A stretch of 20,000 nucleotides of DNA from the NCBI GenBank assembly GCA_030167865.1, contig JALAGF010001625.1:58644-78643 (forward strand), written 5' to 3'. Source of the DNA: Craspedostauros australis (lineage: Eukaryota). The notes below the pieces were generated by a model, which was not told the DNA's origin, searched no databases, and was given only the letters and a program-made list of their open reading frames with translations. The position numbers were made by a program, and so were the translations under genes. Below, one piece after another: positions 3-20,000 of the stretch. Position 1 is the stretch's first letter; every line of letters starts with the position of its first letter.

Positions 3-1082
3 TTGGATGCTTTCGATGGAAGCGACATGTCCGACGACGCAAGGCGATTGGTGATCCTTCGATCCTCGCAGGTCCTCGTCATGTACTTTGCCGTCGCGCA
101 GGCAATCCTTGAGGCTGTCGATGAATGCGAAACCGTGAAGGCAGCAGTGTCCGCGAATGCCGTCGGTACTCCAGGAGTCAACGCAGCCTGGGATCGTGCT
201 GCCGCGTTGATGATCGGCAGCCTTGAGGGCAGCGAGAACAATGGCTCCGGCAACGGATTCATGTTCTACAACATCGCTCAAGAGCACTGCGTCGAGTTCG
301 GCACGTGCAAGTCTCCGGACGACAACTCCAGAGTGAACGAAGAAATGGTCACCCTCCTGTTCGCAGGACGCGGCGCTGTTATCTCCAACAGCTGCGACGC
401 GCTGCGCAAGACGGCTGGCGAGCTGAAGGCTCTGACCCTGATCCCAATGATCCAGGCCACCCTCAGCTCCGCCCTTCGTCTCGGCCGAGACTTTTCCGCG
501 GCCAACCGGGCCGAGGGCGATATCCTCGCGAAGTCATTGGTTCCGCTGGTGCAGAACTCCAATCGCGATTCCGCCAAGGTTCTGTCCGACACCATGCTGA
601 ATCCAAGCTACGATTCCAGGAAGAAGGCTCGGATCGCCCCAGATGTCTTCAGCGCCTTGGCCAACGTCTACGGCGACCTGGACGTCGACTGCAACCTCAT
701 CGGAGACGCCGGAGGGTACGACGCCTGCAGCGGCGCTGGTGTCAGCTCGGACGGCAAGAACCCCGGTGTGATCGCTGGAATCGTTCTCGGCGTAGCAGCC
801 GCGGTGCTGATCATCGTCGCTTGCGCATGCCGCTTCTGCAAACGCAAGAAGACTGAGCAGAAGAGACTGCCCGAGAACAACCCAACCTTCGTCACTGCCA
901 ACGGCGAACTGAATCACTCGATGGACCTGCTGACGAAGGCCTTCTCATCGAACTCGCATTCGCGCAACCCAGTCGACACCGAGGAGATGAAGGGATTGAA
1001 CGATGCGTCACCGACAGTCGATGATGACTTCGAAGAGTCGCCGGCACTTCTGTCGAAGGGCCGTGGCACGGACATCATCTAG
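3..1082 (+). CDS. 5'-truncated FEA1/ISIP2a (low-iron-inducible, phytotransferrin)-like type I membrane protein, C-terminal part
   Basis: The frame is open from the window edge to TAG at 1080-1082. The motif order AAWDRAAALMIGSLEG...FMFYNIAQEHCVEFGTC...VNEEM...C...IPMIQATL...AEG...LVPLV...VDCNLIG resembles algal FEA1-type domains as I recall them. A transmembrane helix GVIAGIVLGVAAAVLIIVACAC (765-830) is followed by basic RFCKRKK and a cytosolic tail. Confidence 0.75.
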   Translation: MDAFDGSDMSDDARRLVILRSSQVLVMYFAVAQAILEAVDECETVKAAVSANAVGTPGVNAAWDRAAALMIGSLEGSENNGSGNGFMFYNIAQEHCVEFGTCKSPDDNSRVNEEMVTLLFAGRGAVISNSCDALRKTAGELKALTLIPMIQATLSSALRLGRDFSAANRAEGDILAKSLVPLVQNSNRDSAKVLSDTMLNPSYDSRKKARIAPDVFSALANVYGDLDVDCNLIGDAGGYDACSGAGVSSDGKNPGVIAGIVLGVAAAVLIIVACACRFCKRKKTEQKRLPENNPTFVTANGELNHSMDLLTKAFSSNSHSRNPVDTEEMKGLNDASPTVDDDFEESPALLSKGRGTDII

Positions 1083-1664: not shown

Positions 1665-4600
1665 TCATTCCGCTTTTGCCGACGGTTCTTCGCATGATCC
1701 ATCGCGGATTGATAGCTGCGTCGGCTCCTGCGGCTGCTTCGAGCATGACGGTCCGAAATCGCCAACCATCTTTCCTGGACCGTGCTCAATTGTGCTTGGA
1801 CATGCAGTTTGGGTTGTTGGTACGCTCCGAGTCAATGTAAAGCATCTTTGATGCATGATGCCTTCGATGTAGCATTTTCCCAGCGTGATCGTTGAGAATA
1901 TGCCGTAATGGCCAGAGATGCTCGATTCGTCCACCACGGCCCCATCACCAAAGGTTACTAGCGCAGCTTCGTAGATCCGGAAGCCAAAGTACAGCAATCT
2001 TCCCTGTACATCTGCACCCTGCATTCGGAGCACTGTATTCATCATTGGTGTGCCCCACAAAAGCGACACGAAGGACCAGACTTGGACCGAGTAGCACAAG
2101 GCTTGGTAGACCATGTACAATGGGACGCACCATGGTTCGGTGCGGCTGCCACTTCCCGCAAGCGTGACTAGCTCAACTGCTCGCAACAGGATGAGCCAAA
2201 CGATGGTCTGGATGATGACGCACGCTACAACAACCGGCACCGCACCCAACGGCGTCTGTGGCTTGATGACATTCATCCACAGCTCGAATGCTGGAATGAA
2301 GCTGGCAGCGACCATGACCAGCATGATGACGTGCAGGATCGTGTTCAGGAGGATGATCCGTCCCAACTCCCAACCTGCGACAAGTTCATATCTTGGGTGG
2401 TGTCGATCGTGGACCAGGTTGGTGGCGAAGTACGTGGCTGGAGACACCAAGGACCTACTGACTGTCACGCCTGGGCCGCAGACCACGTTCAACCCGATGC
2501 TGCTGTCTTCAACCTTGATGGCTTTGTATTGACCATCCTGTTTGATGTCGAAGGTAGATTTGGACACGAAGGATCGTTTGACTGAGATGAGGTCCAACTG
2601 GGATGGAAGGAAGGCATGTGCTGCGACATGCGATCGGAGATCAATGTCCATCCCGAATGCCAAGAGGATGACATTCCAAATCGAGGAGTGAAACGTCAAT
2701 CCATATAGCACGGCGCCTCCGATGCTGTAGTGGAAGTCACATGCCCAACTGGCAAGTTCCGATGGTACACTCTGACATGCAGGGCCTGGCCGTTGTTTGC
2801 CGATTATCACCCACTTGAGCATGATGCTGGAAACGATGAAGAATGTGGAAGTTAGGCCAATGGAAGTAATCCAATAGAGCAGCCTCGCGTACCTCCAGTC
2901 TGGCAACTCATCCCGGACCAGGATGTCGACCACCAGAAAGCAGGTGAAAGCGAAGTAAAGTTCCGCCAGCAACCACAGCATTTTCATTGCACCCAATATG
3001 ATCCATCTGCGATTACCCGCGGTGGAATGTGTGGTGGGGAGAGTTTCGCTTGTCGTCATCTCCAGACTGTCATTGTTACTGTCAGCTTCTGCGTCTGTGG
3101 CTCCATGTGTGCGTGTGGAATGGATGAAACCCGGATTGCCGCGGATGGTAGTGTTGGGCGGTGCTTGTGCTCCTTCCACCAGCACAGACGTGNGAGAGAC
3201 TTGGCAGTTGGACCCAACCTTGACTCCAGGACAAAGAATGCCCTTGATGTCTGCACTTGCTCCAACTTGGATCGTGCGGAATCTCAAGGTGGGGCCTTGG
3301 CAGCCGTCTTTGCACGGACCGAACATGCGACACCGGATACCCTCGCTCACCGTAGCATCAGGACCGATATCCACGAGATCGAACTCACGGATGAATTCGT
3401 CGATGCTCGATGATGCATGCACATTCGCTCCCATCAAGTAATCGAAGAACACCACCAGTGGGGTGCCCATGATGAAGCGTCCAAGGAAGCTCTCCCAGAT
3501 GTGCACAAGCCGATCCACAAACCACCATCGAAGAAAGTAAATGTCGGTCTGGCTGATGTACCCCTCTCTGTATCTGCCAATGACGATCCACTTTGCGAGA
3601 ATGACTTCGACGGTGAATGTGATGGCCCAGAACGGGACGACCAGTGGATACCACACCCACACATACGGAGAGAGGTCAATGAAGAAGAGCTCGTAGGCGC
3701 GATCGTCGTTGACCAGCACCTTCCCAATCTCGTAGGCGGGCACGATGGGAAGTGCGAACATGAAGAGGATGGCGAGCACACCGACGAACTGAATGGTGGC
3801 GGATGTGAGTGGTGCAAGCGGTTTCTCATCTGGAAAGGTGACAAGTCTCTTGAGTTTTGGAAGGCTGGTTGGCAGCGCCTGCCCAGTAGATGCCTCCAGG
3901 AATACTTCCAAGTCTACGACTGTCGGGAACAGCTCGAAGCAATCGGAAGGGAGGGATGTGTTGTATCGTTGAGCAAGGGACTGTCGCAGCTCAAGCTCCA
4001 TCATGGATGATAGCCCAACGTCCTTCCACGTGTCTTTGGCCTTGACGTCTGATCCAATGCAGCTCTTCACAAGTTCGTAAAAGTCCATGTCTCTGATGTC
4101 GACATCTTCGATGACGGATTTCCTCAACGAGAGGCGCTTGGGTTGGCTTGCAATGTCGCCATCCTGTGTACTGAAGAAGTGTGACTTTCCAATCACGTCC
4201 AGCACCATCTTCTGGTCTCCATCATGCAAGCGCTGTCGGTTACAACGTCTCTGGATCTTGCTGCTTGTTGTTTTGGAGATGGTGCGTTCTTCCACAGCTG
4301 CGATTGTTGCTGGCGTCAATCCAATGTGCTCGATCACGGCCTTTCTGATCTCCTGACAGACTGTTGCTGCATCGTCAGCACGATTGGCCCGGATCTCAAA
4401 GACGATCTCGAGCTGTCCGTCGTTGCCCGTTTCATCGGACGAAAATGCCGCGACACATCCTGGACGGACGGCAGATGAGGCCTCTTCAACGGCGTGCTCG
4501 ATATCTTGCGGATAGTAGTTGACACCGTTGACGATGATGATGTCCTTCTTGCGGCCGCAGATGTAGAGATAGTCATCTTGGTAGAATCCGTAGTCTCCTG

Positions 4601-6155
4601 TCCGCAAGTACATCTTGCCAACGGCATCGGATGATGAATCGCCTTGGAGTGTAGCTTGGAAGGTTTCGGCAGTGAGCTGTGGCTGATTGTAGTACCCAGC
4701 GGTCACAGAGGCCCCGGCGATCCAGATCTCTCCCGTGACGTTGTCTGGACGTTTTACACGAGTATCCGGGTCCACGATGATGATATCGATGGAGCTGTGC
4801 AGATTGCTGCGCTGTGCGATGGCGATGAATGGTTGGAGATCTTCACCTTCGCGGATGGTGGAAAGATGGGAGCCGTGATTGTAGCTGACACCAACGACGT
4901 TCTCTGCCAGTCCGTATGCTGCGAGGAACCAGTCCTTGCGTAGACCATGTGGACCAAATGCGTCAGAGAAGTGCTTTTCCGTGTCCAGCCGGATTGGCTC
5001 TGCGGCATTCTGGAAATGAAGCACGCTGGAGAGGTCCAGCTTGTGAGTAAGATTTGCCTTGGCCTCATTGAACTTGCGGGTGACCAACCGATACCCAAAG
5101 TCGGGAGCGGCACTGATGTGGCACTTGTGCTGGGACATGAGATCAATCCAGAGCAACGGGTTGCGGATGAACGAGACTAGTGATATCATGTGGGAATGGA
5201 AGGCGCCTGCCAATGGCGCAATGCCCATCTCGATGAGGCCCATGTCATGGTACTGCGGCAACCAAGAGCATGTGGCGATGCGTTTTGGGATGGCGCTTGT
5301 ATCACCCAACTGGTCTTGGAATGAAGCGAACCAGTAGCTCTGTACGAGCTCGATGTTGGCCCGCAGTGCTTCGTGGGTCACCATGACGCCCTTTGGGTTA
5401 CCGGTACTTCCAGATGTGTACTGGAGGAACGCCAGATCCGATCCTGCAATGTTTGGTTCATCGAAGGAAGGTGGCGGCGACGAGGAGCTGCCAGAGATGA
5501 GACTGGAAAGGAAGCCTTTCTTGGCTTGCTTGGAGTTGTTGTCGCTCTTGTTTTTGTTGGCGATGAATGGGTCGTGACGAATGATGCGATCGGTGACCTG
5601 GTACTTCACCCCGCTGGGCCACATGGCGCGACTTTTGGATGTTGGGTTGGCGCGATCGGCGGCACGGAGCAGATTGATGGATGTTTGGGTGAGGATGAGT
5701 GCTGGTGCACAATCCCCGATGACCTTGTTCATCTTGGTGAGCGACTTGACGAGCGGCGGCCCCGGAGGGTAGACCAACACGGCGGTCACGCCCGCACGCA
5801 GACATCCCAGAAAGATGGCGAAGAAGTGCAGACCGAAGTCGTAGCAGAGGACCACGCGGTCCCCTTTGTTGGTGCCCCATTCGTTGCGGAGGAGGTGGGC
5901 GCAGTGCCCCGCTTCATCCCAGAGCTGCTGGAAGGTGTAGTTGTTGGTTGCCTTGCCTTTTTCGTTGTACCAGGTGGAGAAGACGGTGTCGGACTTGAGT
6001 TCGACGACGAACTTGATATGGTCGATGAAGGACTTGTTTTGGATGGATTTGTGGATGATTTCATGCTCAGTGGTGATGACGTTGGCGATGCCGGCTTCGA
6101 TATCATCAACAACGATGGCGGGGTTGATATTGGAGGGTGGCGATGGGATTCTCAT
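1665..6155 (-). CDS. NRPS-like synthetase: fatty acyl-AMP ligase (FAAL) + acyl carrier domain + Pls/PosA-type membrane terminal domain with beta-helix-like repeats (~1496 aa)
   Basis: FAAL motifs: GDRVVLCY, AFLQYTSGSTGNPKGVMVTH, SWLPQYHDMGLI, AAEPIR, YGLAE, GEIWI, LRTGDYG, GRKKDIII, NYYPQDIE, KTTSSKIQR. Carrier motif WKDVGLSSM (Ser codon 4005-4007). Then TM pairs and three related units (AKWIVIGRY...WWFVDRL...GTP...MGANV; LKWVIIGKQRPGP...FGMDI; GTPMMN...QGADV). The ORF-track start at 6401 is TTG; in-frame ATGs lie at 6344 and 6155, and I chose 6155 (uncertain). One N at 3193 keeps the frame. Confidence 0.88.
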   Translation of the reverse strand: MRIPSPPSNINPAIVVDDIEAGIANVITTEHEIIHKSIQNKSFIDHIKFVVELKSDTVFSTWYNEKGKATNNYTFQQLWDEAGHCAHLLRNEWGTNKGDRVVLCYDFGLHFFAIFLGCLRAGVTAVLVYPPGPPLVKSLTKMNKVIGDCAPALILTQTSINLLRAADRANPTSKSRAMWPSGVKYQVTDRIIRHDPFIANKNKSDNNSKQAKKGFLSSLISGSSSSPPPSFDEPNIAGSDLAFLQYTSGSTGNPKGVMVTHEALRANIELVQSYWFASFQDQLGDTSAIPKRIATCSWLPQYHDMGLIEMGIAPLAGAFHSHMISLVSFIRNPLLWIDLMSQHKCHISAAPDFGYRLVTRKFNEAKANLTHKLDLSSVLHFQNAAEPIRLDTEKHFSDAFGPHGLRKDWFLAAYGLAENVVGVSYNHGSHLSTIREGEDLQPFIAIAQRSNLHSSIDIIIVDPDTRVKRPDNVTGEIWIAGASVTAGYYNQPQLTAETFQATLQGDSSSDAVGKMYLRTGDYGFYQDDYLYICGRKKDIIIVNGVNYYPQDIEHAVEEASSAVRPGCVAAFSSDETGNDGQLEIVFEIRANRADDAATVCQEIRKAVIEHIGLTPATIAAVEERTISKTTSSKIQRRCNRQRLHDGDQKMVLDVIGKSHFFSTQDGDIASQPKRLSLRKSVIEDVDIRDMDFYELVKSCIGSDVKAKDTWKDVGLSSMMELELRQSLAQRYNTSLPSDCFELFPTVVDLEVFLEASTGQALPTSLPKLKRLVTFPDEKPLAPLTSATIQFVGVLAILFMFALPIVPAYEIGKVLVNDDRAYELFFIDLSPYVWVWYPLVVPFWAITFTVEVILAKWIVIGRYREGYISQTDIYFLRWWFVDRLVHIWESFLGRFIMGTPLVVFFDYLMGANVHASSSIDEFIREFDLVDIGPDATVSEGIRCRMFGPCKDGCQGPTLRFRTIQVGASADIKGILCPGVKVGSNCQVSXTSVLVEGAQAPPNTTIRGNPGFIHSTRTHGATDAEADSNNDSLEMTTSETLPTTHSTAGNRRWIILGAMKMLWLLAELYFAFTCFLVVDILVRDELPDWRYARLLYWITSIGLTSTFFIVSSIMLKWVIIGKQRPGPACQSVPSELASWACDFHYSIGGAVLYGLTFHSSIWNVILLAFGMDIDLRSHVAAHAFLPSQLDLISVKRSFVSKSTFDIKQDGQYKAIKVEDSSIGLNVVCGPGVTVSRSLVSPATYFATNLVHDRHHPRYELVAGWELGRIILLNTILHVIMLVMVAASFIPAFELWMNVIKPQTPLGAVPVVVACVIIQTIVWLILLRAVELVTLAGSGSRTEPWCVPLYMVYQALCYSVQVWSFVSLLWGTPMMNTVLRMQGADVQGRLLYFGFRIYEAALVTFGDGAVVDESSISGHYGIFSTITLGKCYIEGIMHQRCFTLTRSVPTTQTACPSTIEHGPGKMVGDFGPSCSKQPQEPTQLSIRDGSCEEPSAKAE

Positions 6156-6417
6156 GTTGGAATGCGCTGTTGACACGGACAGGTAGCTGCAGATGTGGTA
6201 TGGGTATTGCGGTTGCTTTGATCTTGTTGAATTGCTTGATTTGTGAATCTGTTTGCCCTCGGACTGAAATTGTGAGGGGTTGGGAAGGTGAAAGCTTGTG
6301 TGGCAAGCATCGTTGTGCAGAGCAATCTGTTGCTGGCAACACATCTCGCTGAGCCGCTCGCCCTGCCTTCGGCAATTGGGCGCAAAATGCTCTCGCTTCA
6401 AGCTTCTGTGACCTGGT

Positions 6418-6540
6418 GAATTCCTTCACAGATTGTTCCATTGGTCGATCGAGGGAGGAATTCCTTCACAGTTTGTTCCATTGCCAGATCGAGGGAGGAA
6501 TTCCTTCACAGATTGTTCCATTGGCAGATCGAGGGAGGAA
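6418..6540. repeat. Tandem repeat, 3 x 40 bp, in the divergent intergenic region
   Basis: Unit GAATTCCTTCACAG(A/T)TTGTTCCATTG(G/C)(T/C)(C/A)GATCGAGGGAG starts at 6418, 6458 and 6498, followed by a partial GAA. There are no spacers. Confidence 0.95.
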
Positions 6541-7287: not shown

Positions 7288-8979
7288 ATGTCTTTGGCTG
7301 AACCCTTGCTGGACTTGCCCTCCGCCTCATCACTACAGCCAGCAAATGACTCTGCGAATGGTGCTCGCAGTGGTGCTGGCGAGACGGGCAATCCCCACTT
7401 ATACGGCACCGTTCACGACGGAGGGCAGAATGGAAGAGATCCATCATCATCTCCTTCGTTTCCGAGCGATGAACATACTTCTTCGCTTCTATGGCTGAAG
7501 CTGAGACGGGTTGCCAGCCAGCTGCTTTCTGAGATGGCAACCCCGCTGACAGATGACTCTGGGTCGCCTCGGTCTGTTCTGGTGGGATTGGCGACCATCC
7601 TTTCGGTTGGAACGATCCTTGGGCTCATCATTGATGCGATCGCTTCCGGCGGTTCTGAAAACGACGGAAGTGCAGATGGCGATGATGATGATGATGATGA
7701 TGGAACCACTTGCAAGTCCCTAGCAACTTTCAGCGCCATTCTGGGCTACTGCTACTTCTCGTGCTGGGGGATCTCCTTCTACCCACAGGCCCTGTCCAAC
7801 TTCCGTCGCAAATCCACGGATGGATTGAACCTGGACTTCTGCGTGTTGAACGTCCTTGGCTTCGCGTGCTACACGGCCTATACTCTGGCCTTCTACTGCA
7901 ACTCCACCATCCAACTTTTGTACCGCGAACGGTACGATGCAGACATCTCCGTCCAATCCAACGACGTCGCTTTTGCTGCCCATGCTCTCCTTCTGTCCTC
8001 CATCACGCTGGGCCAAATCGTTTACTACAACTACAGCTGCGGCAAAGCCAACACCAACACCAACAACGGCGGCAACAATGCTGGCAACGTCAGCCACAAC
8101 ACAGACAGCAATACTACCGACAACAACAACGACGATAACGACGACAGATCCAACGAGGTCTTGATCAGAGCCCCATTCTCAGGCCCGCTGTCATTGAGCC
8201 CACCCATCTTCATGTTGCTGACCCTTTTCCTCAGCATCATCATTTCATGCGCGTTGGGCCTTGTTTGGTCGCAGCATGCCACAAGCAAAGGCAACGACGA
8301 GAGTCAATACTTCGACAATCACGGTTACCCATCTGCACATCCGTACGAAGCAACGTCACTACAGCATTTTCTGTCGGCGGATGGACGGCATGATCCGTCT
8401 TGGTTTAGATCTCTTGGCGAACATTCTCGTGGCACCGATGTGAATGAGCATTCATCCACGATCAACAGGCTCTTTCGTGTCGGCAACTGGCTGGACTACA
8501 TCTACCTCCTGAGCTACATCAAAATTGCCATCTCCCTGATCAAGTACATCCCACAGGTCATCCAAAACAAGCAACGCCAATCCACTGAGGGCTGGAGCAT
8601 TTGGAACATCGTTCTTGACTTCACGGGTGGAACCCTCAGCACCGCTCAGCTCATCCTCGACTGCTACGCAGCGTCGGCTGGCAGTCCTAGCAGCTCGAGC
8701 TCTTTCTGGCACCTCGTCCAAGGCAACCTCGTCAAGCTCATGCTGGGATTGATCTCCATCTTCTTTGATGTCATCTTCCTCGTCCAGCACTACGTCCTGT
8801 ATCCCGAACCACCAACAGTGGAAGGCGATTCAGCTCTGCCGCAAGAATCCCAGGCACAAGAGGATTCCGATGCCAACGTTGATGGTGATGTTGGGGAAGC
8901 AGAAGGAGAGGAAGACGCCGATGCCGACAACGACAATGTTGTAGAGGGAGGAGAATGTCCACAGGCGGTCTTCGTTTGA
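7288..8979 (+). CDS. Cystinosin-like PQ-loop lysosomal/vacuolar transporter (~563 aa)
   Basis: Cystinosin/ERS1 signature segments: GYCYFSCWGISFYPQ (PQ 7783-7788), NFRRKSTDGLNLDF, NDVAFAAHA, YLLSYIKIAISLIKYIPQ (PQ 8551-8556), STEGWSIWNIVLDFTGGTLS, KLMLGLISIFFDVIFLVQHYVLY. The first in-frame ATG is 7288 (7240 is GTG). Confidence 0.92.
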   Translation: MSLAEPLLDLPSASSLQPANDSANGARSGAGETGNPHLYGTVHDGGQNGRDPSSSPSFPSDEHTSSLLWLKLRRVASQLLSEMATPLTDDSGSPRSVLVGLATILSVGTILGLIIDAIASGGSENDGSADGDDDDDDDGTTCKSLATFSAILGYCYFSCWGISFYPQALSNFRRKSTDGLNLDFCVLNVLGFACYTAYTLAFYCNSTIQLLYRERYDADISVQSNDVAFAAHALLLSSITLGQIVYYNYSCGKANTNTNNGGNNAGNVSHNTDSNTTDNNNDDNDDRSNEVLIRAPFSGPLSLSPPIFMLLTLFLSIIISCALGLVWSQHATSKGNDESQYFDNHGYPSAHPYEATSLQHFLSADGRHDPSWFRSLGEHSRGTDVNEHSSTINRLFRVGNWLDYIYLLSYIKIAISLIKYIPQVIQNKQRQSTEGWSIWNIVLDFTGGTLSTAQLILDCYAASAGSPSSSSSFWHLVQGNLVKLMLGLISIFFDVIFLVQHYVLYPEPPTVEGDSALPQESQAQEDSDANVDGDVGEAEGEEDADADNDNVVEGGECPQAVFV

Positions 8980-9849: not shown

Positions 9850-11004
9850 ATGATGCAACGAAAAAAGCTGTCAAATCTCAGCAACCGCGTCACTGCGCAA
9901 AGATCCACACAAAGCAAAGCCTGCCTTGGCTTTGGTTTGTTGGCCATCGCCTCTGGCTTCGCGGTCCTCCTCGTCTCCTTCTGGACATTCTCCATCATCA
10001 ATCTCACCACGGAGACCAGCAGCTTGGGTGGCAGAAGCGACAATGTTCTTGACAGTAGCAGCAATGGCCATCGCAAAGGCGAGATGAGCGACGCCGAAAA
10101 GATGCTCTTGCGAAAACAGAGGCGGAACCACGATGGTCGACCGTCGATGACGCATGTGAACTTCACCAACGACGCGTTCCATCACCTTCAAGACACACAA
10201 CAGAAGGGATCTTCGGCGGTCGGGCAAGAAGACGATGGTACAGCATCTACCTTGCACCAAGCATCAGCAACAGCATCAGCAACAGCATCAGCAACAGTGT
10301 GCCCCAACCAGAATATTCTCAAGGACCTGACCGAGCGAGAATTGCATCCGCGTGCTGGAGCCAGGCACATGGTGGATCCCCCCGCAGGTGGAAACGTGAC
10401 TCTGGTTTGCTGCAAGACTACTGCCGGTCCCCTCAGCATCCTCATCCATCACAAGTGGGCGCCGCTGGGCGCACAGCGGGTGCTGGAGATGATCACATCT
10501 GGTTACATGAGCAAGCCGATACCCCTCATGCGTTGTATCCGAAACTTTATCTGCCAATTCGGTCTGCACTCCCTCGAGGAGTACAACAAACGGAAGCATC
10601 CCACGTTCGGAAAGTTTGCCCAATCGTTTCCGGACGACCCCAACTGGCTGCCCGAGGGAAAGCTGCATCGGGTGAACGACCAGGGCGTCAAGCGATTTGC
10701 CAAGGGGTACTTTGCGTTTGCTGGCGGGGGCAAGAGCAGCCGCACAAAGCAGCTCATCGTTGCGTTGAAAGAGAACCCTGGCCTCGCGGGGGGATCTCCG
10801 TGGGAGGTGCCGTGGGGTGAGGCAGTCGGCGAGTACTCCTTCCGCACGCTGAGTGCCATCAGTACCGCATACGGCGAGAAAGGGCCACCGCAGGGCAAGC
10901 TCATGAACCATGGATTCACGGCAGAGATGGCGCAACAGTACCCCGATTTGGACATGTTGGAGCAATGCACAGTCGTCGATCAGGTCAATCTGGATGTCAT
11001 ATAG
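9850..11004 (+). CDS. Cyclophilin-like peptidyl-prolyl isomerase domain protein with N-terminal type II membrane anchor (~384 aa)
   Basis: A basic N-terminus is followed by a hydrophobic helix (ACLGFGLLAIASGFAVLLVSFWTFSII, ~9919-9999) and a low-complexity stem. The domain reads CKTTAGPLSILIHHKWAPLGAQR...LMRCIRNFICQFG...FAFAGGGKSSRTKQL...PWGE...YGEKGPPQG...YPDLD. R-x4-F-x2-Q (10531-10557) matches the cyclophilin A R55/F60/Q63 spacing. First ATG is 9850. Confidence 0.8.
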   Translation: MMQRKKLSNLSNRVTAQRSTQSKACLGFGLLAIASGFAVLLVSFWTFSIINLTTETSSLGGRSDNVLDSSSNGHRKGEMSDAEKMLLRKQRRNHDGRPSMTHVNFTNDAFHHLQDTQQKGSSAVGQEDDGTASTLHQASATASATASATVCPNQNILKDLTERELHPRAGARHMVDPPAGGNVTLVCCKTTAGPLSILIHHKWAPLGAQRVLEMITSGYMSKPIPLMRCIRNFICQFGLHSLEEYNKRKHPTFGKFAQSFPDDPNWLPEGKLHRVNDQGVKRFAKGYFAFAGGGKSSRTKQLIVALKENPGLAGGSPWEVPWGEAVGEYSFRTLSAISTAYGEKGPPQGKLMNHGFTAEMAQQYPDLDMLEQCTVVDQVNLDVI

Positions 11005-11055: not shown

Positions 11056-11177
11056 GTGAGTGTATGTAAGGATGCAACGATTGGCGAGAATATTCGACCG
11101 TTTCCGCCATACTCGTAGCTCGTACTATACTCGTACCAGTGCACACAAAGCGCAAGCGTCGATCTTGCTGAGATCGA

Positions 11178-11309
11178 GCACGCTGAAAGGCACGCTGAAA
11201 GGCACGCTGAAAGGCACGCTGAAAGGCACGCTGAAAGGCACGCTGAAAGGCACGCTGAAAGGCACGCTGAAAGGCACGCTGAAAGGCACGCTGAAAGGCA
11301 CGCTGAAAG
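11178..11309. repeat. Perfect 12-bp minisatellite (GCACGCTGAAAG) x11
   Basis: Eleven identical units in the convergent spacer between genes 4 and 5. They produce the spurious TLKG/ACLS/SVPF ORFs. Confidence 0.97.
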
Positions 11310-11714
11310 ACACGTGCACCACGAAACCACTACTCCCCATCACGGTCGGCTTGCGATATAGCCTTTCATACTTCCCATCAGCCTCCTGCGAATACTGAGG
11401 AGAATGTTGCTTTCCGCGCGCTTGTGCATGCGTCTGCTCTGTGCTCAACTCTACGCGATACGTGTTCTATGTAAGCATGATTGTAGTTTGGATGAGACAT
11501 TGGATGTGAATTGATACTACGAGCAGGATAGCACGCTCCAGAGAGAGCGAGAGACACTTGATGGAACGCTGACTCTCACAGGAGAGGGCGGGCACAGGCC
11601 CACGCGCAGGCACATACCAATACTAACGCTAATACTGATGCTAATAGTAGTACGATTCCCCGACGAGTAAGGGTACATCAAGGAAGTCGATCCCAGCGGT
11701 CCGCCTCCTGGTCC

Positions 11715-14700
11715 TTATTCGTCATCCCAAAACCGTGTCAGCACCTTGCGCTTTGGTGCAGGTTGCGCCTGCACCATGTCCAGCTGCGGTTGATCGTACA
11801 CCCGTTCTCCGAACAATCGCCTGATGTTCATGGCGGTCAATTCCGAGAATGACACGGCCGTGGCGTCGGCTGCGAGCAGATCGTATCGGGGATACGTACC
11901 GACGAAGGCGACGGTCCTCATCTCCACATCCTGGCCTGCCAAGGCTGCGTTGGGCGTCGTATCGAAGACGGTGCACTGGTCGGGTCGGCGTTCCATCCGA
12001 AGCGCAGCGCCAAGAAGCTGCTGGCTGTCGCGGTCGTAGTTGTCATCTGCTGTCACGCAGTGCTCTGGCGGGATGACGTTTTGCAGACCAGCAAAGTCCA
12101 GCAGCATCAGCGCTTGATCTCGCGTCAGGTGAGATGTGATGCCGCAGCCCATTTCGACGTCGAGCAAGGATTTGATCCATTGATGGATCCCTGCGACTGG
12201 TGCCACAGCAGGTATGTCCGCCGCGTCATCGCGGATGCCTTCTCCGTCTCCATTGCGGCCCGCTCCGAAAGAAGACCCTTGGCTGCTGGCGTCCTTCCAT
12301 CTCGATCGCTTTGATGTGATTTGATCTCTGTACTCCTGCGCGATCTGAAGAGACTGCTCCATGTCATCCGCCCAACCAAAGCCGTTGAGGATAGCCTCCT
12401 CCGGGCCAACGGTCAAAGCAAAGAGCACGTCTTCATTGCTGGGCATCGCATAACCGCGCTTCCATGCCACCTCCGTCCACGCATCGAATGCCACCTTGAA
12501 CAACTCATCGGTGCTGGGTTCTGTTGATGCCGTGCTCGCGGTTCCTTGTGCGCCGTTCGCTCTCGATGATGCGGCGGCATCCATCAACGGTTTCGACGAC
12601 TCAGACGCCGCGATTCCGTTCAAGGCCTCTTCGTAAGTTGACGAGATCGTTCGGATCTGCTCATCATTAAAATTGTGCGTCCACGCCAATAACCGCCGCA
12701 CGGATTCGTCGGGCTGCATGCGCATCGTCAGCTCGATTTGATCGATGGACGGCGAGTCGAAGCCGTGCTTTGCGGCCGTAGTGGCCCACGCGCTGGCCTG
12801 CGCGTCAAGCAAAGCCTCAAGTTGCTGCTTCTGTGCTTGCGCTTGTTGCGACGAGTGTTTGCCTGGTTGCTTGGTAGCTGCTTGATCCGGACTTGGCAGA
12901 GCCGTGTTGAGTCCAACACCACCGGTTTCACGATCAACCAGTTCATGTGCTCGGCCGTGCACCTTGGTGTTGATGATCTCCGTCAATTTGGATTGGTACC
13001 TGTGCGCCAACTCCTGCGCCTTCACTGCGTCGTCCGTCCATCCAAAGCCATCCATGATGACGATCGCTGCGTCATTCAGAACAGCTGCCGCAAGGACGGC
13101 TTCGGGTTCCGGTTCCGGCTGGCCGATCTCCTTCGCCAGCTCGCTCCATGCCACGAATTGGATCTCCAGCATGTCATTCTCGTTGATTGCTTCGAGACGA
13201 GTACTGACGTTCACCGGTGCTCCCAGCGGCAAGTCGGATCCTGACCCAGATACTGGCTTTCTACCGTGGTCGTTACCATTGGATCGCTGTTCTCGCAGTT
13301 GCTGCATGAAATGACGGTACGCAGCAACGATGCGATCGACTTGATTCGGATCTGCTGACCATCCGAACATGGTCTGGACAGCGATGTCGGGCGACATGGC
13401 CGTGCTTTGGACGATGAGATCGAAGGGCGGGTTGGGAAAGCCGTACTTGTTGGCGGTTGCCTCCCATGCATGCTTCACGATCGACAGCCGTTCCTGCTCA
13501 TTCATCGCTGGGTTCGCTCGTGCGGCGGTTGAATGCCCCGATCCAAGTTCGGCTGCACCCATCGCTATGGGATTGATGTCGTTGGTATTTGCAGCGGAAG
13601 CGGAAGCATTGGATGCATCATCAACTGGCTTTTCGATACCATTTTGCTCCGCCCATTCATCGAACAGCAGCTGGAATTGCAGATCGTGCTCCTGTGCAAT
13701 CTCCCTGCTCTCCAACAGATCCTTCGTCCAATAGAAGACATCTCGGACCGCCACCTCGGACTGAACCACAGATGCGCGACGCGCATCTTCCACCGTCGGC
13801 AGCCGGACGGCGAACTTCTTGGCGACTGCTGTCCAGGCTCTATATGACAGCCCGGTGAGGTCCACAATCACGCCTTCCAATCGAAGGATGGCGCCGAATT
13901 CCTGGAACGGTTTGTTGATGCGCGGCATGTACTGCGAGACACCGGTAGCGTAAACGGAAGTCTTGTGATCGATGAGGTTGCTGACTTCGATGGTGCTGAG
14001 CTCCGTGTACTCCAGCAAGTGGCGTTTGCGCGCTTCGAAGCTTGTCATCCCCCACTCGTTGTTGCGTCCTCGGAAGTACTCGGTATCGTAGGAGTAATCT
14101 GCGTAGTCATCTGTCCCACGACCGCGACCAAGAGCGACGTTAATATCGATGCCCAGACCGCCGCCGCCTTTCTGACCCGATCGACGTCGCTGGTACTCAG
14201 CCAGTTGCCGCATGTTGTGATCGTACTTGTCGTCATCGAAGACATCGTCCATGTCGCGTCCCTGAAAAGTGTTGTCGTTCGCATTGGTCGATTGATCAGC
14301 GCCGCTGCTCCCACCGGATGCGATCCTGCCCGTCTCCTGTTCCTTGCGCAACCATTCTGGGATGCTTGCGTCACCGACGTCGTTGTCAGCATCGCTGTTG
14401 TCCTCTTCGTCCTCGTCATCATCGTCCTCAATCTCGTTGTTGGACAGAATTCCACCTCTATCGCTGTACTCACCCGCTTCAGCCGTAGTTTTGCGACGGA
14501 CGAATGTTGGCCGAGGCCCCAGCGACTGCAGTGCATCCTTGGCGTATTGGTCAACGTCGATTGCCTGTTGTTGCTGCTGCTCCTGCTGTTGTCCATCGGC
14601 GGTGTTGTCGGCGCTGTCCAACTGTTTGCGCATCTCTGCTTCCTTTGCCATGTAGGCTTCGAAGTCAGCCTTTTGCTCTTCCTTCAGGCTTGGGTCGTCC

Positions 14701-17700
14701 TTGACACGTCCACCTCCGACAGCAGAAATAGAACGGTACAATGACTCTGAGACTTCAGCAGCATCAAGTTCCGTCGATGGAACATAGGTGGTGTCGCTGT
14801 CGTCGCTGGCGCCACTACTCGCGCTCGTCAAATCTACTGAAGATGTGTCGTCTTGATTCGCTTGTGCCTGCGCCTGCGCTGGTGCTTGCGATGCGATGGC
14901 CGCCGCCGCCGATGCTTCCAGTCCGGCTGCAGAATCCCGCTTCGTTCGAGATGGTCTTGGACCGATCGATGCCAAGATCTTGTCGGCATCGACGTCGCCG
15001 TCCTCGCTGACGACTTCGGAAATATCGTACTTCAAATTCGTTGGGAGATCCGTGTTCGCATCGTCGACACCAATTCCACCATTGCTGCTTGTACTCCTTT
15101 CGCCGTCACCACTTTCGTCGCTTCGGTCGGTCGAGGATAGTCCCGACATTTGCCGTCTTTCCGTCTCGAACTGTTGGAAGGCTTGCCATTGAGCTTTCAG
15201 CTCTTCCTTTTCTTCCGTCGTTTTCGCTCCAGCTCTCCTGTACATCGCGCGTAGTTTCTGTTCTTCCAGAGTGCCCAATTTGGAGACCGCCAGCTCGTCA
15301 TCTTCGATCGGAGCAGTGCCATCTTCAATGAGACTTTCAGTGCTATCACCTTCATACTCGTATGTGACTTCGTCCTCCTGAAAGAATGGTGTGTTCGGCG
15401 GCGGCCGTGTCGCCGACGGTTGCGGGACCGTTGCCTCCATGGGGGTTTGCTGGAGATCATCCTGAAAGAATGGTGTGTTTGGAGGTGTGGATGACACTGT
15501 TGTTGGCATTTCTGGGTCTCTTGACGAAACTCCATCGTCGTTCGCTCCCACCCTTCCTTCATCGGCAGATGGGAAGGACCAAGATGGGGGTGAGATGGTT
15601 TGGATTGGCTGGGAAGGCTTGTTATCGTAGCGACTGTCGTCGTCGGTTGCGTCATCCGATGATTGTCCAAACACATCTGAGAAATCCACGGGTTGGACAT
15701 CCTTGACCTGGTCGGCTCCTTCATTATCCTCTGGCTCCCTGTTGTCGATTGCGGATTGGAGGTAGTCAATTTCGGATTGCAGTTTGGTGATGCGAGATGG
15801 ATCGGTTGTTTTGGATATCAAGTCCCTCAGCGCGACAATGGCCTGTTGGTTCATGTCCGGGTCCGCTTGCGATGGTGCCTTCCATGCGGGCGTGGACGTA
15901 GACGTGGGCGTGGATGCACCATCTGCATTGGCGTCCTGGGCTGTCTCCGAGGTGGCGCTGCCTCGTGACAGCGGTGGGATCACTGACTTCCTTGGAGGTT
16001 CGTGCCATTCGAAGGGCATCTTTGGATTCTGCTCCGAAGATAGGCCGAATAGTTGCCTTGACTTTTCCTCCTCCGACACGTAGCGCTTCCAAGATTCCAA
16101 CTTGGCCGCGATCTCGGCTTCGTCGTCGCTATCGACGGTGTTGGCGCTGAGGTTGGTGACGCCGCCGCCGCCGCCGGTCTGACCTTCCGTGTCTTTTGCG
16201 TTGGAACGGGTCGCGGTTGCGATGGATCTGTACATCTGCCATTCCTTCATGGTCTCTGGGCGGATGGTTCCTTTGTTGGCCTCCTTGTCGATTTGTGATC
16301 TAAGCTCTTCGATGGTATCCTCGAGGATGTCCGAAACGGCCGTTTCATCAACGTCATCCTCAGAATCGGCCTGGCCTGTGCTCGCGCTCGCGCCAGTGCT
16401 TGTTGCCATTGCGCTGACGTAGTAGCCTGTCTCGTAGCTATTGCCGGAGCTGCTGCCATTGCCGTTGCTGTTGGTGTCCGAAGCGTCCATGTCTGTGCTT
16501 TGCGATCGTTTGGCCAACATTTCCTCGAGGCTTTGCAAGGCCCATTCGTCCAAGTCTTGCGTTTCGGAAGGGATTGCTGGCACTGTTGACGATGTTGCAG
16601 ATGTGGGCGAGGATGTTGAGGACGCTCCTGCTGCTGATGATGGTGACGACGACGAATTGTTGGCGGCTTTCGCAGGAGCACCGTCGTCGTGTTGTTGTTG
16701 TTGTTGTTGTGTGGCGTAGTACTCCTGGAACTCATCGTATTGTTGCTGCATGTGCAGGTTACGATCGTACTCCTGCTCTGCCTCCTTGAGGATGGACTCT
16801 GCGATGTCTGTGGTCTCATCGGCCCCAATGAATGTGAGCTCCATCTCCTCCTCGAGGAGCCGCTCGTACTCCTGCAATCGTTCCATTGCCATTTTCCGCT
16901 TTTCGGATTTGAGGGTGCGGTCCAGCTCCTGTTGGATGATGGAATCCACGATCCCTTCGGCATTGTCGGGAATACTGAATTGCTTCTCGTCGTCTTTCAT
17001 ATCTGCATCAAAGGAAGGAGTCTTGCTGGCATCAGCCCCGCCGTCTCTACCTAAGGGAGAGCTGACGTCTTCTCGTGATGGTTCGAGCAGCACATCGAGA
17101 GCGGCATCAAGGTTGGCCGGAGAAGTGGGGAGAGTTTGGTCCAGTTGTTGCTCCTGCCCCTGCTGCTGTTGAAGATGCTGATTTTGATTGCGTTCATTAC
17201 GGATGCTCTGCTTCATCTCATCCTGGATGGTGGCGTAATCTTTTCTGATGCCCTGTTCCTCTTTGTGAAACCACGAATCATCTTTTTGTTGCTGCTGCTG
17301 CTGCTGTGATTGTGTTGGTATATCGCCATCTTTACTGTTATTGTCATCGCTCATGTTCGGCAGCGGAAGCTTTGCGGTCGGATCACGCTCTTCCTCAACT
17401 GATGCAGCCCCACCGGCAGTAAGGATATCATCCAACGACGGCATGCCTTCGAAGAGACTATCGAAACTGGTGGCGACGACCTTGGGGGTGTCCTCGTTGG
17501 CATCATCTGTGCTATCCTTGGTATCTTCAGAATCTGCTTGATCGTCGATGGAGATTGGTTGCACCTTGGCCTTGGAAGCTTGCGTGGGCGAGTTATTGGT
17601 TGACATCCACGGGAAGATTCGATCTCTTTTGCGCACCCGTTCCGCATCCGACTCATCCTGCGTGCCGTATCGGTTTGGATAGCCAGCACCAACATTTCCT

Positions 17701-18239: not shown

Positions 18240-19684
18240 TGTGTGCGGTTTCTCTTGGAGTTGGAATTGTTGTCGTAATTGGAGTTGCAGTGGCAATTGT
18301 GGGAGATTTGTGAGTGCTTCCAAACTCCCAGCCTTTCTCTCTCGCGCCGCCTCGTTGTCCAGCCGCTTAGTTCTGTGCTCACGATTGCGCAACGATGCTC
18401 AACTGCGAAGATGGTATTGTACCAGTTCCAGTACCAGTGCCAGTACGAGGATGTGTATTGTGGTTGTCAGATGCTTGGTGCTTACACCACGTGTACCGAC
18501 GGTAATGAGTCTCCCACCACGATTGCAGAGAGTGGTTATCGCGGCACAAATATTGGTATTGCACGACCAAGAGCAGAGTCTTCCAGAAGGAATAGAAGGT
18601 ATAATAGCTGGAAGCGTGGAATGGTACACTAGAGTACTCCAGTGTGAAACGTGACCCTTCAACGCGTGGAGCTTTGGGTTTGCTTCTCTCTCTGTTGTGC
18701 TCTCTCTTCCCCAAGTCTCAGTAATACGAATCGATGCCCAAGGATGCGCTGCCGTCTGAGCTGACACTGATAGAGGTGAGGTGATCTTGATGCGGTTAGC
18801 CTCAGTAGTCGTACGACTAGTAGTATGGTACCAATGCGGATGCGACAGAAGGTGGAGTGGCGGAATACAAAGAATGACGCCAGACGCCAATGAAAGCGGA
18901 TGCTGCTCCTTTGCACACTCGTCCCGCTTGCGCTGACAGATGAGTTCTGCGTGCGATGAATCAGATGAAGCTTGTGGAATCGTGGAATGTGGTGAAAGAG
19001 TGTGTTGGTATGTTGGTGTGTTGGTGAAGTGATGGAGTGGTCGAACGCGTGGAATCTTCTGCTCGACAACCTGCTCCGCCCCTCGACGATACTTGCACCA
19101 TCTGCCACCAAACACGCTACAATCGAAAGTACCCGCATCCATCACCAGCTGTCTCATCGCAGAGAGGTGGCATCCCCATTTCCACCACCCACCAACACAA
19201 CACGACACAAACGGAAGCGAAGCGAAGCGGAACGGCAGCCGAGAGACATCTGTCACCACCCACGATCGCGGCAGTCACTGTTTCCGTCACCACGCAACGT
19301 GTGACGTCGGCAACAAACAGAGTCCAGGTGGTCGATTACGAGCTCTACTACGAGCTGCACACGGAATAACAACACAGGACCAACGCTCTTCGCTTCTTGC
19401 TATCACGAGGTCTGAGGCGGTGACATCATCGTTGACGCGAGGTCCATGTCGAGGGAGCAGCGACATCCACGACTGACGCACACCAAACCGTGCGTTCTGC
19501 GCCAATCATTGCGGTTCTTTCTTTCGTCTTTGGGACGCGGAACATCGAAACCAGGGACACGCGGCAAAATGTCGAGTATGACCCCAAAACCTCATGACTT
19601 AAATACGAACGACAGTTTCAGTGACGTTTGATATTTATTTGGTCATCACGTCTAAATTGATAGTATCATGCTGTCATGTGTCAT

Positions 19685-19833
19685 TGTCGGGAATGTCGGG
19701 AATGTCGGGAGTTTTGTCGGGAATGTNNNNNNNNNNNNNNNNNNNNNNNNNNNNNNNNNNNNNNNNNNNNNNNNNNNNNNNNNNNNNNNNNNNNNNNNNN
19801 NNNNNNNNNNNNNNNNTGTCGGGAATGTCAGGA
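19685..19833. repeat. 9-bp tandem repeat (TGTCGGGAA)n spanning an assembly gap
   Basis: Units start at 19685, 19694, 19703 (variant) and 19715, with a partial at 19724. After the gap come 19817 and a variant at 19826. Confidence 0.9.
19727..19816. other. Assembly gap (90 N)
   Basis: A run of N flanked on both sides by the same 9-bp repeat. Confidence 0.99.
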
Positions 19834-20000
19834 TTCTCTCCAACACACACCCGCAGCTGATTCAGCACAGCCCCTGGCGACGGACAGACGAAAGAATGAA
19901 GAAAACAAAAACGTGTGTCGTGGTAACAACAGACACAGTCACACAGAGTGCGAAACCGACACGCTTGCGCTCATTTTGTGGATGTGCACTTGACTCAATG

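What the first reader, a model, noticed from the sequence alone, without database searches (positions are those of the whole stretch)
1665..6155. Single-module FAAL-ACP-Pls-type membrane synthetase in an alga: candidate uncharacterised lipidation or polymer-forming system
Seen: a FAAL-type adenylation domain (~6000-4220), a carrier domain (~4090-3890) and about 700 aa with TM pairs alternating with three related soluble units. There is no canonical C, KS, TE or reductase domain. Established: this A-T-(TM + tandem domain)x3 layout is that of epsilon-poly-L-lysine synthetase (Pls/PosA family, NRPS terminal domain TIGR02353), where the terminal domains form the amide bonds, and FAALs load fatty acids onto carrier proteins rather than CoA. 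Inference: a fatty-acid loader replaces the amino-acid A domain, so the enzyme may transfer acyl chains to an amine or hydroxyl acceptor at a membrane, or polymerise hydroxy/amino fatty acids. I know of no defined product for this architecture in diatoms, although similar uncharacterised ORFs probably exist in other algae and plants.
Basis: partly seen in the sequence, partly recalled or inferred. Interest (0 to 1): 0.8.

Follow-up and report, generated by a model that had tools for sequence, protein, structure and literature searches.

The report
Expanded algal fatty-acid membrane synthetase family
This gene encodes a membrane enzyme that probably loads a fatty acid onto its own carrier arm and joins it to an unknown partner molecule; it is one of at least twenty copies in this alga and belongs to a widespread, unstudied family whose product is unknown.

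Summary
Confirmed: one intron-free 1,496-aa ORF (6155-1665, minus strand) with a FAAL, a carrier domain (Ser717) and a Pls-like terminal domain. The AlphaFold model (pLDDT 93) shows three units, each a membrane-helix pair plus a left-handed beta-helix of the acyltransferase type. Repeat 3 carries His1416, kept in 35/36 Pls and 72/79 FAAL-linked relatives: the likely general base. It is not a Pls member: TIGR02353 scores 84 against a cut-off of 423, and Pls's amino-acid loader and acidic residues are absent. (2) This genome has about 24 distinct copies under purifying selection, and their loader and transferase trees disagree. (3) 17 of 18 Seminavis robusta FAALs retrieved have this layout, which may explain a published, uncharacterised diatom FAAL excess. 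(4) The window's copy alone carries P326L and G632S, so it may be impaired. Best reading: a carrier-dependent membrane acyltransferase making ester or amide lipids (0.5). Main rival: a hydroxy-fatty-acid polyester synthase (0.25). Acceptor, product and expression are untested.

The parts
1665..6155 (-). Whole gene, 1,496 aa, intron-free: FAAL - ACP - (2 TM + left-handed beta-helix) x3
4206..5999 (-). FAAL domain, aa ~53-650. W298/P300/M305, helix 326-333 and F353 fall at the spacing of the EcFAAL CoA-rejection elements; the FAAL-specific insertion is shortened
5178..5180 (-). Leu326: private to this copy. Pro in 25/25 paralogues and 50/51 homologue rows (1 gap); first residue of the FAAL-specific helix
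4257..4262 (-). A10 motif: Ser632 is private to this copy (Gly in 27/28 paralogues with 1 X, and 51/51 homologue rows); catalytic Lys633 is intact
3876..4088 (-). Carrier (ACP/T) domain, aa ~690-760. Predicted phosphopantetheine Ser717 at 4005-4007, motif GLSS
3582..3812 (-). Membrane helix pair 1 (aa ~782-858)
3111..3473 (-). Left-handed beta-helix repeat 1 (aa ~895-1015); contains the N at 3193
2802..3020 (-). Membrane helix pair 2 (aa ~1046-1118)
2406..2687 (-). Beta-helix repeat 2 (aa ~1157-1250)
2163..2375 (-). Membrane helix pair 3 (aa ~1261-1331)
1776..2054 (-). Beta-helix repeat 3 (aa ~1368-1460), with His1416 (1908-1910, predicted general base) and Asp1409 (1929-1931)
6156..6460 (-). 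About 300 bp of upstream sequence copied together with the gene into other loci (probable 5' UTR/promoter)
6418..6540 (.). Three tandem copies of a 40-bp unit; absent from the 5 other copies aligned

Best explanation
A self-contained, membrane-embedded acyl-carrier-dependent acyltransferase that works like Pls but with a fatty-acid donor. Step 1 (inferred from family): the FAAL adenylates a fatty acid with ATP. Step 2 (inferred): it loads the acyl group onto phosphopantetheine on Ser717 of its own carrier, primed by one of the genome's PPTases, bypassing CoA. Step 3 (fold predicted; chemistry inferred): the carrier delivers the thioester to the three beta-helices. These probably pack as a pseudo-trimer on the same membrane face as the loader, with one working groove at His1416 of repeat 3, possibly assisted by Asp1409. 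His1416 deprotonates the hydroxyl or amine of a separate, non-polycationic acceptor held at the membrane surface (for example a sugar, polyol, glycan or amino alcohol). The product is an ester- or amide-linked lipid released into the membrane. The roughly 24 paralogues, with varied loader pockets and swapped loader/transferase modules, would make a set of related lipids. The window's copy may be a weakened allele or a decaying copy.
For: FAAL identity: the 8 best NCBIfam families after PRK05691 are FAAL or related fatty-acid ligases; the top PDB sequence and fold hits are FAALs. The CoA-blocking elements described in PMC8460268 (passages) occur at the same spacing. Ser717 is invariant in 47 rows, and the genome has 2 PPTase matches above the Pfam cut-off. 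Terminal domain model: pLDDT 93, pTM 0.92; best structural matches are hexapeptide acyl/acetyltransferases (3ect Z 10.9, rmsd 3.2 over 144; 3srt Z 10.4, rmsd 3.4 over 148), and LpxA/LpxD, which use acyl carrier protein, are also listed. PMC10522769 (passage) models PosA the same way. His1416 is the only His/Asp/Glu/Ser/Cys/Lys shared by both groups: 35/36 Pls and 72/79 FAAL-type rows. The Pls His aligns with the His of galactoside acetyltransferase 3ftt (E 0.046) and with His1416. LbH acetyltransferases use a His general base (PMC8786284, passage). Pls-only acidic residues (at positions 1176, 1199, 1272, 1358, 1398, 1420) are not kept. In Pls the acceptor is a freely diffusible molecule (PMC9205021, passage). 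Purifying selection: median dN/dS 0.15 for the FAAL (229 pairs) and 0.28 for the terminal domain (207 pairs).
Against: No activity, product, acceptor or expression data exist. Every characterised homologue of this terminal domain that I read about is an iterative polymerase, which favours the polymer rival. No recurrent partner gene was found among 50 flanking ORFs. The FAAL-specific insertion is shortened (A5-to-A6 spacing 56, against 42-44 in amino-acid A domains and about 68-70 in two bacterial FAALs). The link of the His to the acetyltransferase His rests on a weak alignment, and I had no coordinates to check the geometry. The structural matches cover only repeat 1 (model residues ~70-270). 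The Pls/FAAL-type alignment in repeat 2 is uncertain. This copy has P326L and G632S.
Confidence: 0.5

Rival explanations
1. An iterative polyester (estolide-like) or polyamide synthase: the FAAL loads a hydroxy- or amino-fatty acid, and the terminal domain adds it to the free OH/NH2 of the growing chain, exactly as Pls does with lysine.
For: The fold, six membrane helices and His are shared with Pls. A fungal A-T-C-like enzyme with six membrane segments makes the polyester polymalate (PMC11286673, passages; its homology to this family was not tested). Several relatives carry FAD oxidoreductase, FMO-like or hydrolase domains next to the carrier, which could supply hydroxylated chains (P0003, P0013, P0062, P0129). 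Paralogues here have polar Glu/Gln where the two bacterial FAALs aligned have Gly.
Against: An ordinary fatty acid cannot polymerise. The window protein has no tailoring domain. Free swapping of loaders between transferases fits a loader-independent acceptor better than a donor that must also be the acceptor. Pls-specific residues are lost.
Confidence: 0.25
2. The loader is FAAL-like in sequence but activates a non-fatty acid (an aryl, short or keto acid, as recalled for McyG), or has regained CoA ligase activity. The product would then not be a fatty-acyl lipid.
For: McyG A-PCP with a phenylalanyl adenylate appears among the sequence and fold hits. The insertion is shortened. All NCBIfam FAAL scores are below their curated cut-offs.
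Against: The best hits are long-chain FAALs (olefin synthase FAAL, TM-score 0.87 to the target; LpFAAL; FadD32). The helix and bulky residues that PMC8460268 found more important than the insertion are present. The fused carrier Ser is invariant.
Confidence: 0.12
3. This particular copy is non-functional or decaying (compatible with any reading of the family): recent duplication, then loss of two invariant FAAL residues.
For: P326L and G632S occur in none of the other copies or homologue rows. Two related copies (C6237, C6464) already have two stops each and end after the FAAL.
Against: The frame is open. Lys633, Ser717, Asp1409 and His1416 are intact. Its 3 private changes are within the range of other copies (0-20). 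dN/dS against its nearest copy is 0.19 (FAAL) and 0.28 (terminal domain). Both changes are single transitions and could be allele or assembly differences.
Confidence: 0.3

Closest known systems
epsilon-poly-L-lysine synthetase Pls / delta-poly-L-ornithine synthetase PosA (TIGR02353; PMC10522769, PMC9205021)
   Same: Single module, no C or TE domain; about 700-aa terminal domain of three membrane-helix pairs and three left-handed beta-helices; repeat-3 His; Q789, R876, W878 and W1137 shared.
   Different: A FAAL replaces the amino-acid A domain. About 18% profile identity; TIGR02353 84 bits against a cut-off of 423. The QTHLFEDR acidic tail and other Pls-only acidic residues are lost. Forms a separate clade whose named members are eukaryotic.
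Bacterial FAAL and FAAL-ACP loading modules (olefin synthase FAAL 7r7e-g, LpFAAL 3kxw, FadD32, EcFAAL 3pbk; PMC8460268, PMC11837247)
   Same: Core motifs, FAAL-specific helix, bulky pocket residues, fused carrier.
   Different: Shorter insertion. The downstream partner is a membrane beta-helix transferase rather than KS or C domains. This layout is not mentioned in the passages I read of either paper or of PMC12820801.
Hexapeptide (LbH) acyltransferases: maltose/galactoside O-acetyltransferase, QdtC/WlbB/AntD N-acyltransferases, NeuO, LpxA/LpxD
   Same: Beta-helix fold (Z up to 10.9), three-fold assembly, loop His as general base; LpxA/D use acyl carrier protein.
   Different: Those are soluble homotrimers with three sites (recalled). 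Here three diverged repeats sit in one chain on a six-helix membrane anchor, with the His in one repeat only and the donor made in cis.
Aureobasidium polymalate synthetase (PMC11286673)
   Same: A-like, T and C-like domains with six membrane segments; forms ester bonds.
   Different: Activates malate. Homology to this family was not tested directly; black-yeast proteins with a weak match (P0033, P0036) fall outside the FAAL-linked clade.
Plant FAAL-like multidomain proteins (PMC8460268, section 10)
   Same: Eukaryotic, uncharacterised, FAAL fused with oxidase domains, as in some relatives here.
   Different: Described with HemY, catalase or amine-oxidase domains; no Pls-type terminal domain is mentioned, and none appeared among my named hits.

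Membership tests
Pls/PosA homopoly-amino-acid synthetases | Single module A-T-terminal domain with six TM helices and three tandem soluble domains, no C or TE | tested here: met
Pls/PosA homopoly-amino-acid synthetases | TIGR02353 score above the curated cut-off | tested here: not met
   84.3 bits against 423.1
Pls/PosA homopoly-amino-acid synthetases | Amino-acid A domain with the Asp/Glu pair binding a diamino acid (Asp217/Glu221 of PosA) | tested here: not met
   FAAL-type A4 motif instead of FDxS; PMC10522769 passages
Pls/PosA homopoly-amino-acid synthetases | Repeat-3 histidine (my own criterion from the alignments, not a published one) | tested here: met
   His1416; 35/36 Pls and 72/79 FAAL-type rows
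Pls/PosA homopoly-amino-acid synthetases | Makes an isopeptide homopolymer | not testable with these tools
   Needs an enzyme assay
Fatty acyl-AMP ligases (FAAL) | FAAL-specific helix and bulky residues blocking the CoA pocket (EcFAAL W224, M231, F279, helix 251-259) | tested here: met
   W298, M305, F353 and helix 326-333 at identical spacing; aligned to LpFAAL and olefin synthase FAAL. The EcFAAL alignment itself was not displayed.
Fatty acyl-AMP ligases (FAAL) | Prolines lining the alternative pantetheine pocket | tested here: inconclusive
   P130/P131, P300 and P333 present; P326 is Leu in this copy only
Fatty acyl-AMP ligases (FAAL) | FAAL-specific insertion | tested here: inconclusive
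   A5-to-A6 spacing 56, against 42-44 in 16 amino-acid A domains and about 68-70 counted by hand in two bacterial FAALs: about half retained
Fatty acyl-AMP ligases (FAAL) | CDD cd05931 match | not testable with these tools
   CDD is not available; NCBIfam FAAL families are the top hits but all below their whole-protein cut-offs
Fatty acyl-AMP ligases (FAAL) | Loads holo-ACP and rejects CoA | not testable with these tools
   Needs an assay
Acyl/peptidyl carrier domain (PF00550) | Helical bundle with a conserved Ser at the start of helix II | tested here: met
   Ser717 invariant in 47 rows; helix starts there; weak PDB hits are mostly PKS carrier domains
Acyl/peptidyl carrier domain (PF00550) | Pfam gathering score | tested here: not met
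   17.2 against 20.8 bits; a paralogue (23.2) and many homologues exceed it
Hexapeptide (LbH) acyltransferases | Left-handed beta-helix fold | tested here: met
   (matches cover repeat 1)
Hexapeptide (LbH) acyltransferases | Active-site His in the loop between coils, at a subunit interface | tested here: inconclusive
   Sequence position matches through Pls; the 3D geometry could not be measured

The most novel reading that the evidence does not exclude
A eukaryote-wide, undescribed family of membrane synthetases that polymerise hydroxylated fatty acids, or graft them onto secreted glycans, to make a surface lipid polymer. Some diatoms diversify it combinatorially by swapping loader and transferase modules among dozens of paralogues, and it accounts for most long diatom FAAL proteins.
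Probability: 0.2. Interest if true: 0.9.

Novelty: new variant of a known kind. Interest (0 to 1): 0.7.

Why it matters
Pls-type enzymes are known as amino-acid (and perhaps malate) polymerases; a fatty-acid-loading branch would extend this chemistry to lipids. A 2026 survey (PMC12820801) found diatoms to have the most FAALs among eukaryotes, with 16 in Seminavis robusta, and assigned no product in the section I read. Here 17 of the 18 S. robusta-named FAAL proteins of 822-2618 aa that I retrieved carry this terminal domain, so the excess can be tied to one architecture and tested. The alignments also point to a single candidate catalytic residue (His1416, the His of Pls QTHLFEDR) for a terminal domain with no solved structure among my PDB hits. 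That prediction can be tested at once in Pls or PosA.

Tried and rejected
Two separate genes or introns: rejected at DNA level, since the frame is continuous here and in most long paralogues. Upstream start at 6344: rejected. Copies as mere alleles of the window locus: rejected for the 4 of 5 nearest copies whose flanks I held, as only ~300-450 bp upstream is shared; C4488 flanks were not tested. Bacterial contamination or recent transfer: GC3 0.66 lies within the neighbours' 0.61-0.75, and the nearest relatives are diatom proteins. Bacterial FAAL-linked form: not seen. A two-pattern scan of GTDB genomes gave 6 loci; the 2 I read are Pls-type proteins with amino-acid A domains. None of the bacterially named FAAL proteins among the 100 new hits has the terminal domain. 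These scans are shallow and many hits are unnamed. Gene cluster: 50 of 107 flanking ORFs were scanned; no recurrent biosynthetic neighbour. A PPTase ~9 kb from one copy sits among housekeeping genes. A solved Pls terminal domain did not appear. Chain-length prediction from olefin-synthase mutants: PMC11730487 has no passage on them. The extra domain in P0072 gave no Pfam or Atlas hit. Earlier scan notes: none. Literature: searches listed no paper describing this architecture. The search on diatom estolides/polyesters timed out, so candidate products were not surveyed. No complex prediction was run.


Full report
OBSERVATION. The minus strand carries one open frame from 6155 to 1665, 1,496 aa, with one ambiguous base at 3193. 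The start at 6155 is supported by an invariant context in 6 of 6 aligned copies; the longer frame from 6344 is not conserved. Pfam gives AMP-binding (aa 69-489, E 6e-54) and a weak PP-binding match (aa 703-749, 17.2 bits, cut-off 20.8), and no C, KS, TE or reductase domain. NCBIfam ranks FAAL families at the top, all below their cut-offs, and TIGR02353 at 84 bits against a cut-off of 423. That the host is a diatom is inferred from its nearest named relatives.

LOADER. The best PDB matches by sequence and by fold are FAALs: Legionella FAAL, the olefin-synthase FAAL (TM-score 0.87 to the target) and FadD32. The CoA-rejection elements listed for E. coli FAAL in PMC8460268 (passages and section 10) recur at identical spacing: W298, P300, M305, helix 326-333 and F353. 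Against this, the FAAL-specific insertion is short. The A5-to-A6 spacing is 56, against 42-44 in 16 amino-acid A domains and about 68-70 in two bacterial FAALs (my hand count). That paper found the helix and bulky residues to matter more than the insertion, so I still read the domain as a FAAL. In the carrier, Gly714 and Ser717 are two of three invariant columns in 47 rows, and Ser717 begins helix II in the model. The genome has two PPTase matches above the Pfam cut-off.

TERMINAL DOMAIN. Profile against profile, aa 775-1465 match a 14-row Pls alignment at probability 100 and E 1e-47 over 660 columns, at 18% identity. The AlphaFold model (71 rows; pLDDT 93, pTM 0.92) has three helix pairs, which coincide with the hydrophobic peaks, each followed by a beta-helical unit. 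The closest solved folds are hexapeptide acyltransferases (3ect: Z 10.9, rmsd 3.2, 144 aligned; 3srt: Z 10.4, rmsd 3.4, 148 aligned); these matches cover repeat 1 only. PMC10522769 (abstract, section 10, passages) describes the same predicted layout for PosA and proposes that the three repeats form one catalytic domain. I aligned 36 Pls rows with 82 FAAL-clade rows, after dropping 6 near-duplicates, 13 outlying rows and 6 own paralogues. His1416 is the only His, Asp, Glu, Ser, Cys or Lys shared by both groups (35/36 and 72/79). It lies in repeat 3 only, aligns with the His of the Pls motif QTHLFEDR, and that His aligns weakly with the loop His of galactoside acetyltransferase 3ftt (E 0.046). 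That this particular His is catalytic in the acetyltransferase is recalled; the general His-base mechanism of the superfamily is stated in PMC8786284 (passage). Asp1409 is kept in 76/79 FAAL-type rows (Asn in Pls). Six acidic positions nearly invariant in Pls are not conserved in the FAAL type, which argues against a polycationic product; the repeat-2 part of that comparison is uncertain. A few relatives lack the His (P0015, P0053, P0063).

FAMILY. A profile search of 1.84 billion representatives gave 382 proteins at E<=1e-30 and 2,795 at E<=1e-3; only the best 150 were listed. In a FastTree of 121 terminal domains, all 60 FAAL-labelled sequences fall in one clade (support 1.0) apart from the 15 amino-acid-loading Pls types; the root is arbitrary. 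Of the 100 new proteins from the FAAL-region search, 39 match the terminal-domain profile (one marginally), and none with a bacterial name does. Some relatives add FAD-oxidoreductase, FMO-like, hydrolase or KS domains, or an unclassified ~370-aa domain, mostly between loader and carrier, as assembly lines with tailoring steps do. PMC12820801 (sections 25 and 26, passages) reports diatoms as the eukaryotes richest in FAALs, with 16 in S. robusta, and names FAAL-PKS as their multidomain form. Among the 18 S. robusta-named hits (one identified by its Sro prefix), 17 carry the terminal domain and 1 is a FAAL-PKS. That search saw only proteins of 822-2618 aa, so stand-alone FAALs were excluded.

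THIS GENOME. The terminal domain has 58 matches and the FAAL 67 in the 65.9-Mb assembly. I analysed 34 copies. Of these, 28 have more than 450 terminal-domain codons and form 24 clusters at 97% identity. Most partial matches stop at contig ends; two copies are truncated and carry stops. The seven own sequences in the tree form one clade (support 1.0), so the expansion is lineage-specific. Copies are mostly dispersed and share only ~300-450 bp upstream with the window copy. No partner gene recurs among 50 of 107 flanking ORFs scanned. Median dN/dS is 0.15 for the FAAL and 0.28 for the terminal domain. Trees of the two regions for 19 copies reject each other (AU p 9e-37 and 7e-4). For example, C5573 is about 90% identical to the window in the FAAL and about 65% beyond it; C984 and C4387 have different loaders on an identical terminal domain; C3820 and C4069 have nearly identical loaders on terminal domains 89% identical. 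This points to module swapping or gene conversion, though chimeric assembly in a fragmented genome is not excluded. Residues after the HDMGL motif vary among paralogues. The window copy alone has P326L and G632S, at positions invariant in all other readable copies and homologue rows, so it may be impaired; Lys633, Ser717 and His1416 are intact.

MECHANISM. Shown: the architecture, the homology to Pls, the predicted fold, conservation, selection and distribution. Inferred: fatty-acid adenylation, loading of Ser717, and His1416-catalysed transfer to an acceptor at the membrane. In Pls the acceptor is a freely diffusible molecule that is never tethered (PMC9205021, passages), so the same machinery can do a single acylation if the acceptor differs from the donor. 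I favour single transfer to a hydroxyl or amine acceptor (0.5), because a plain fatty acid cannot polymerise, this protein has no tailoring domain, and loaders appear to be exchanged between transferases. Iterative polyester formation from hydroxy-fatty acids is the main rival (0.25), with polymalate synthetase as a possible precedent (PMC11286673, passages; homology untested). A non-fatty-acid donor is less likely (0.12). Independently, this copy may be inactive (0.3).

NOVELTY. It works like Pls but fails two Pls membership tests, so it is a new variant of a known kind. Ten searches of the held library listed no description of the FAAL-ACP-Pls-type layout. Passages of PMC11837247, PMC8949500 and PMC12055004 did not mention it either; PMC8096840 and PMC11730487 (passages) added nothing decisive. 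Subscription papers are not covered. The domain tables and Figure S4 of PMC12820801 were too large to read and may list the layout, and genome-mining pipelines probably flag such genes as NRPS-like (recalled). The proteins sit in databases as 'putative FadD21' or hypothetical. Interest 0.7: an uncharacterised biosynthetic family, widespread and strongly expanded, with a concrete catalytic prediction, but no product or expression evidence yet.

Noticed in passing
window 3-1082 (+), continuing from L073:4076-9643: The downstream neighbour is the end of a very long ORF (over 2,000 aa in all) with Fea1 (low-iron-inducible) domains and a C-terminal membrane anchor.
   Followed up: partly
window 6418-6540: A 40-bp unit is triplicated just upstream of this copy only; it is not in 5 other copies aligned.
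   Followed up: partly
window 7288-8979 (+), 9850-11004 (+), 11715-18239 (-): PQ-loop protein, cyclophilin-like protein, and a 2,174-aa low-complexity protein with a faint HAD-like C-terminus; ordinary-looking neighbours.
   Followed up: no
window 11072-11398 (+): A short ORF with a run of LKGT repeats, suggesting a 12-bp tandem repeat.
   Followed up: no
window 19554-19995: A repeated element around an N gap, also found in L021 and L043, both loci with family copies.
   Followed up: no
P0072 aa ~560-940; similar by eye in P0010, P0018, P0046, P0093, and by its gap in Pfam coverage in P0061: An unclassified ~370-aa domain between FAAL and carrier; no Pfam or Atlas hit. A candidate new tailoring domain.
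   Followed up: partly
P0013 (Seminavis robusta) aa ~700-1010: By eye it has cytochrome-P450-like motifs (ExxR and a Cys near the end; labels recalled) before the FAD oxidoreductase; Pfam did not detect P450 at E<=0.05.
   Followed up: partly
L057 (G000:C1378): One of two PPTase genes lies about 9 kb from a family copy, with housekeeping genes between; probably coincidence.
   Followed up: yes
L037, L038, L039, L077: Two copies are truncated after the FAAL with two stops each; two contigs (C5783, C6186) hold tandem copies.
   Followed up: partly
L029:934-3231, L030:2634-4550: A FAAL without carrier or terminal domain (C4162) and a more distant FAAL with a weak carrier match (C3954) also occur.
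   Followed up: no
L062, L063, L072, L075: Ankyrin-repeat genes flank 4 family copies, suggesting that copies sit in regions rich in expanded gene families.
   Followed up: no
P0040, P0135, P0147, P0163: The Pls-type terminal domain is also fused to PKS modules, to a PPTase, and to a C-A-T module in unnamed proteins.
   Followed up: no
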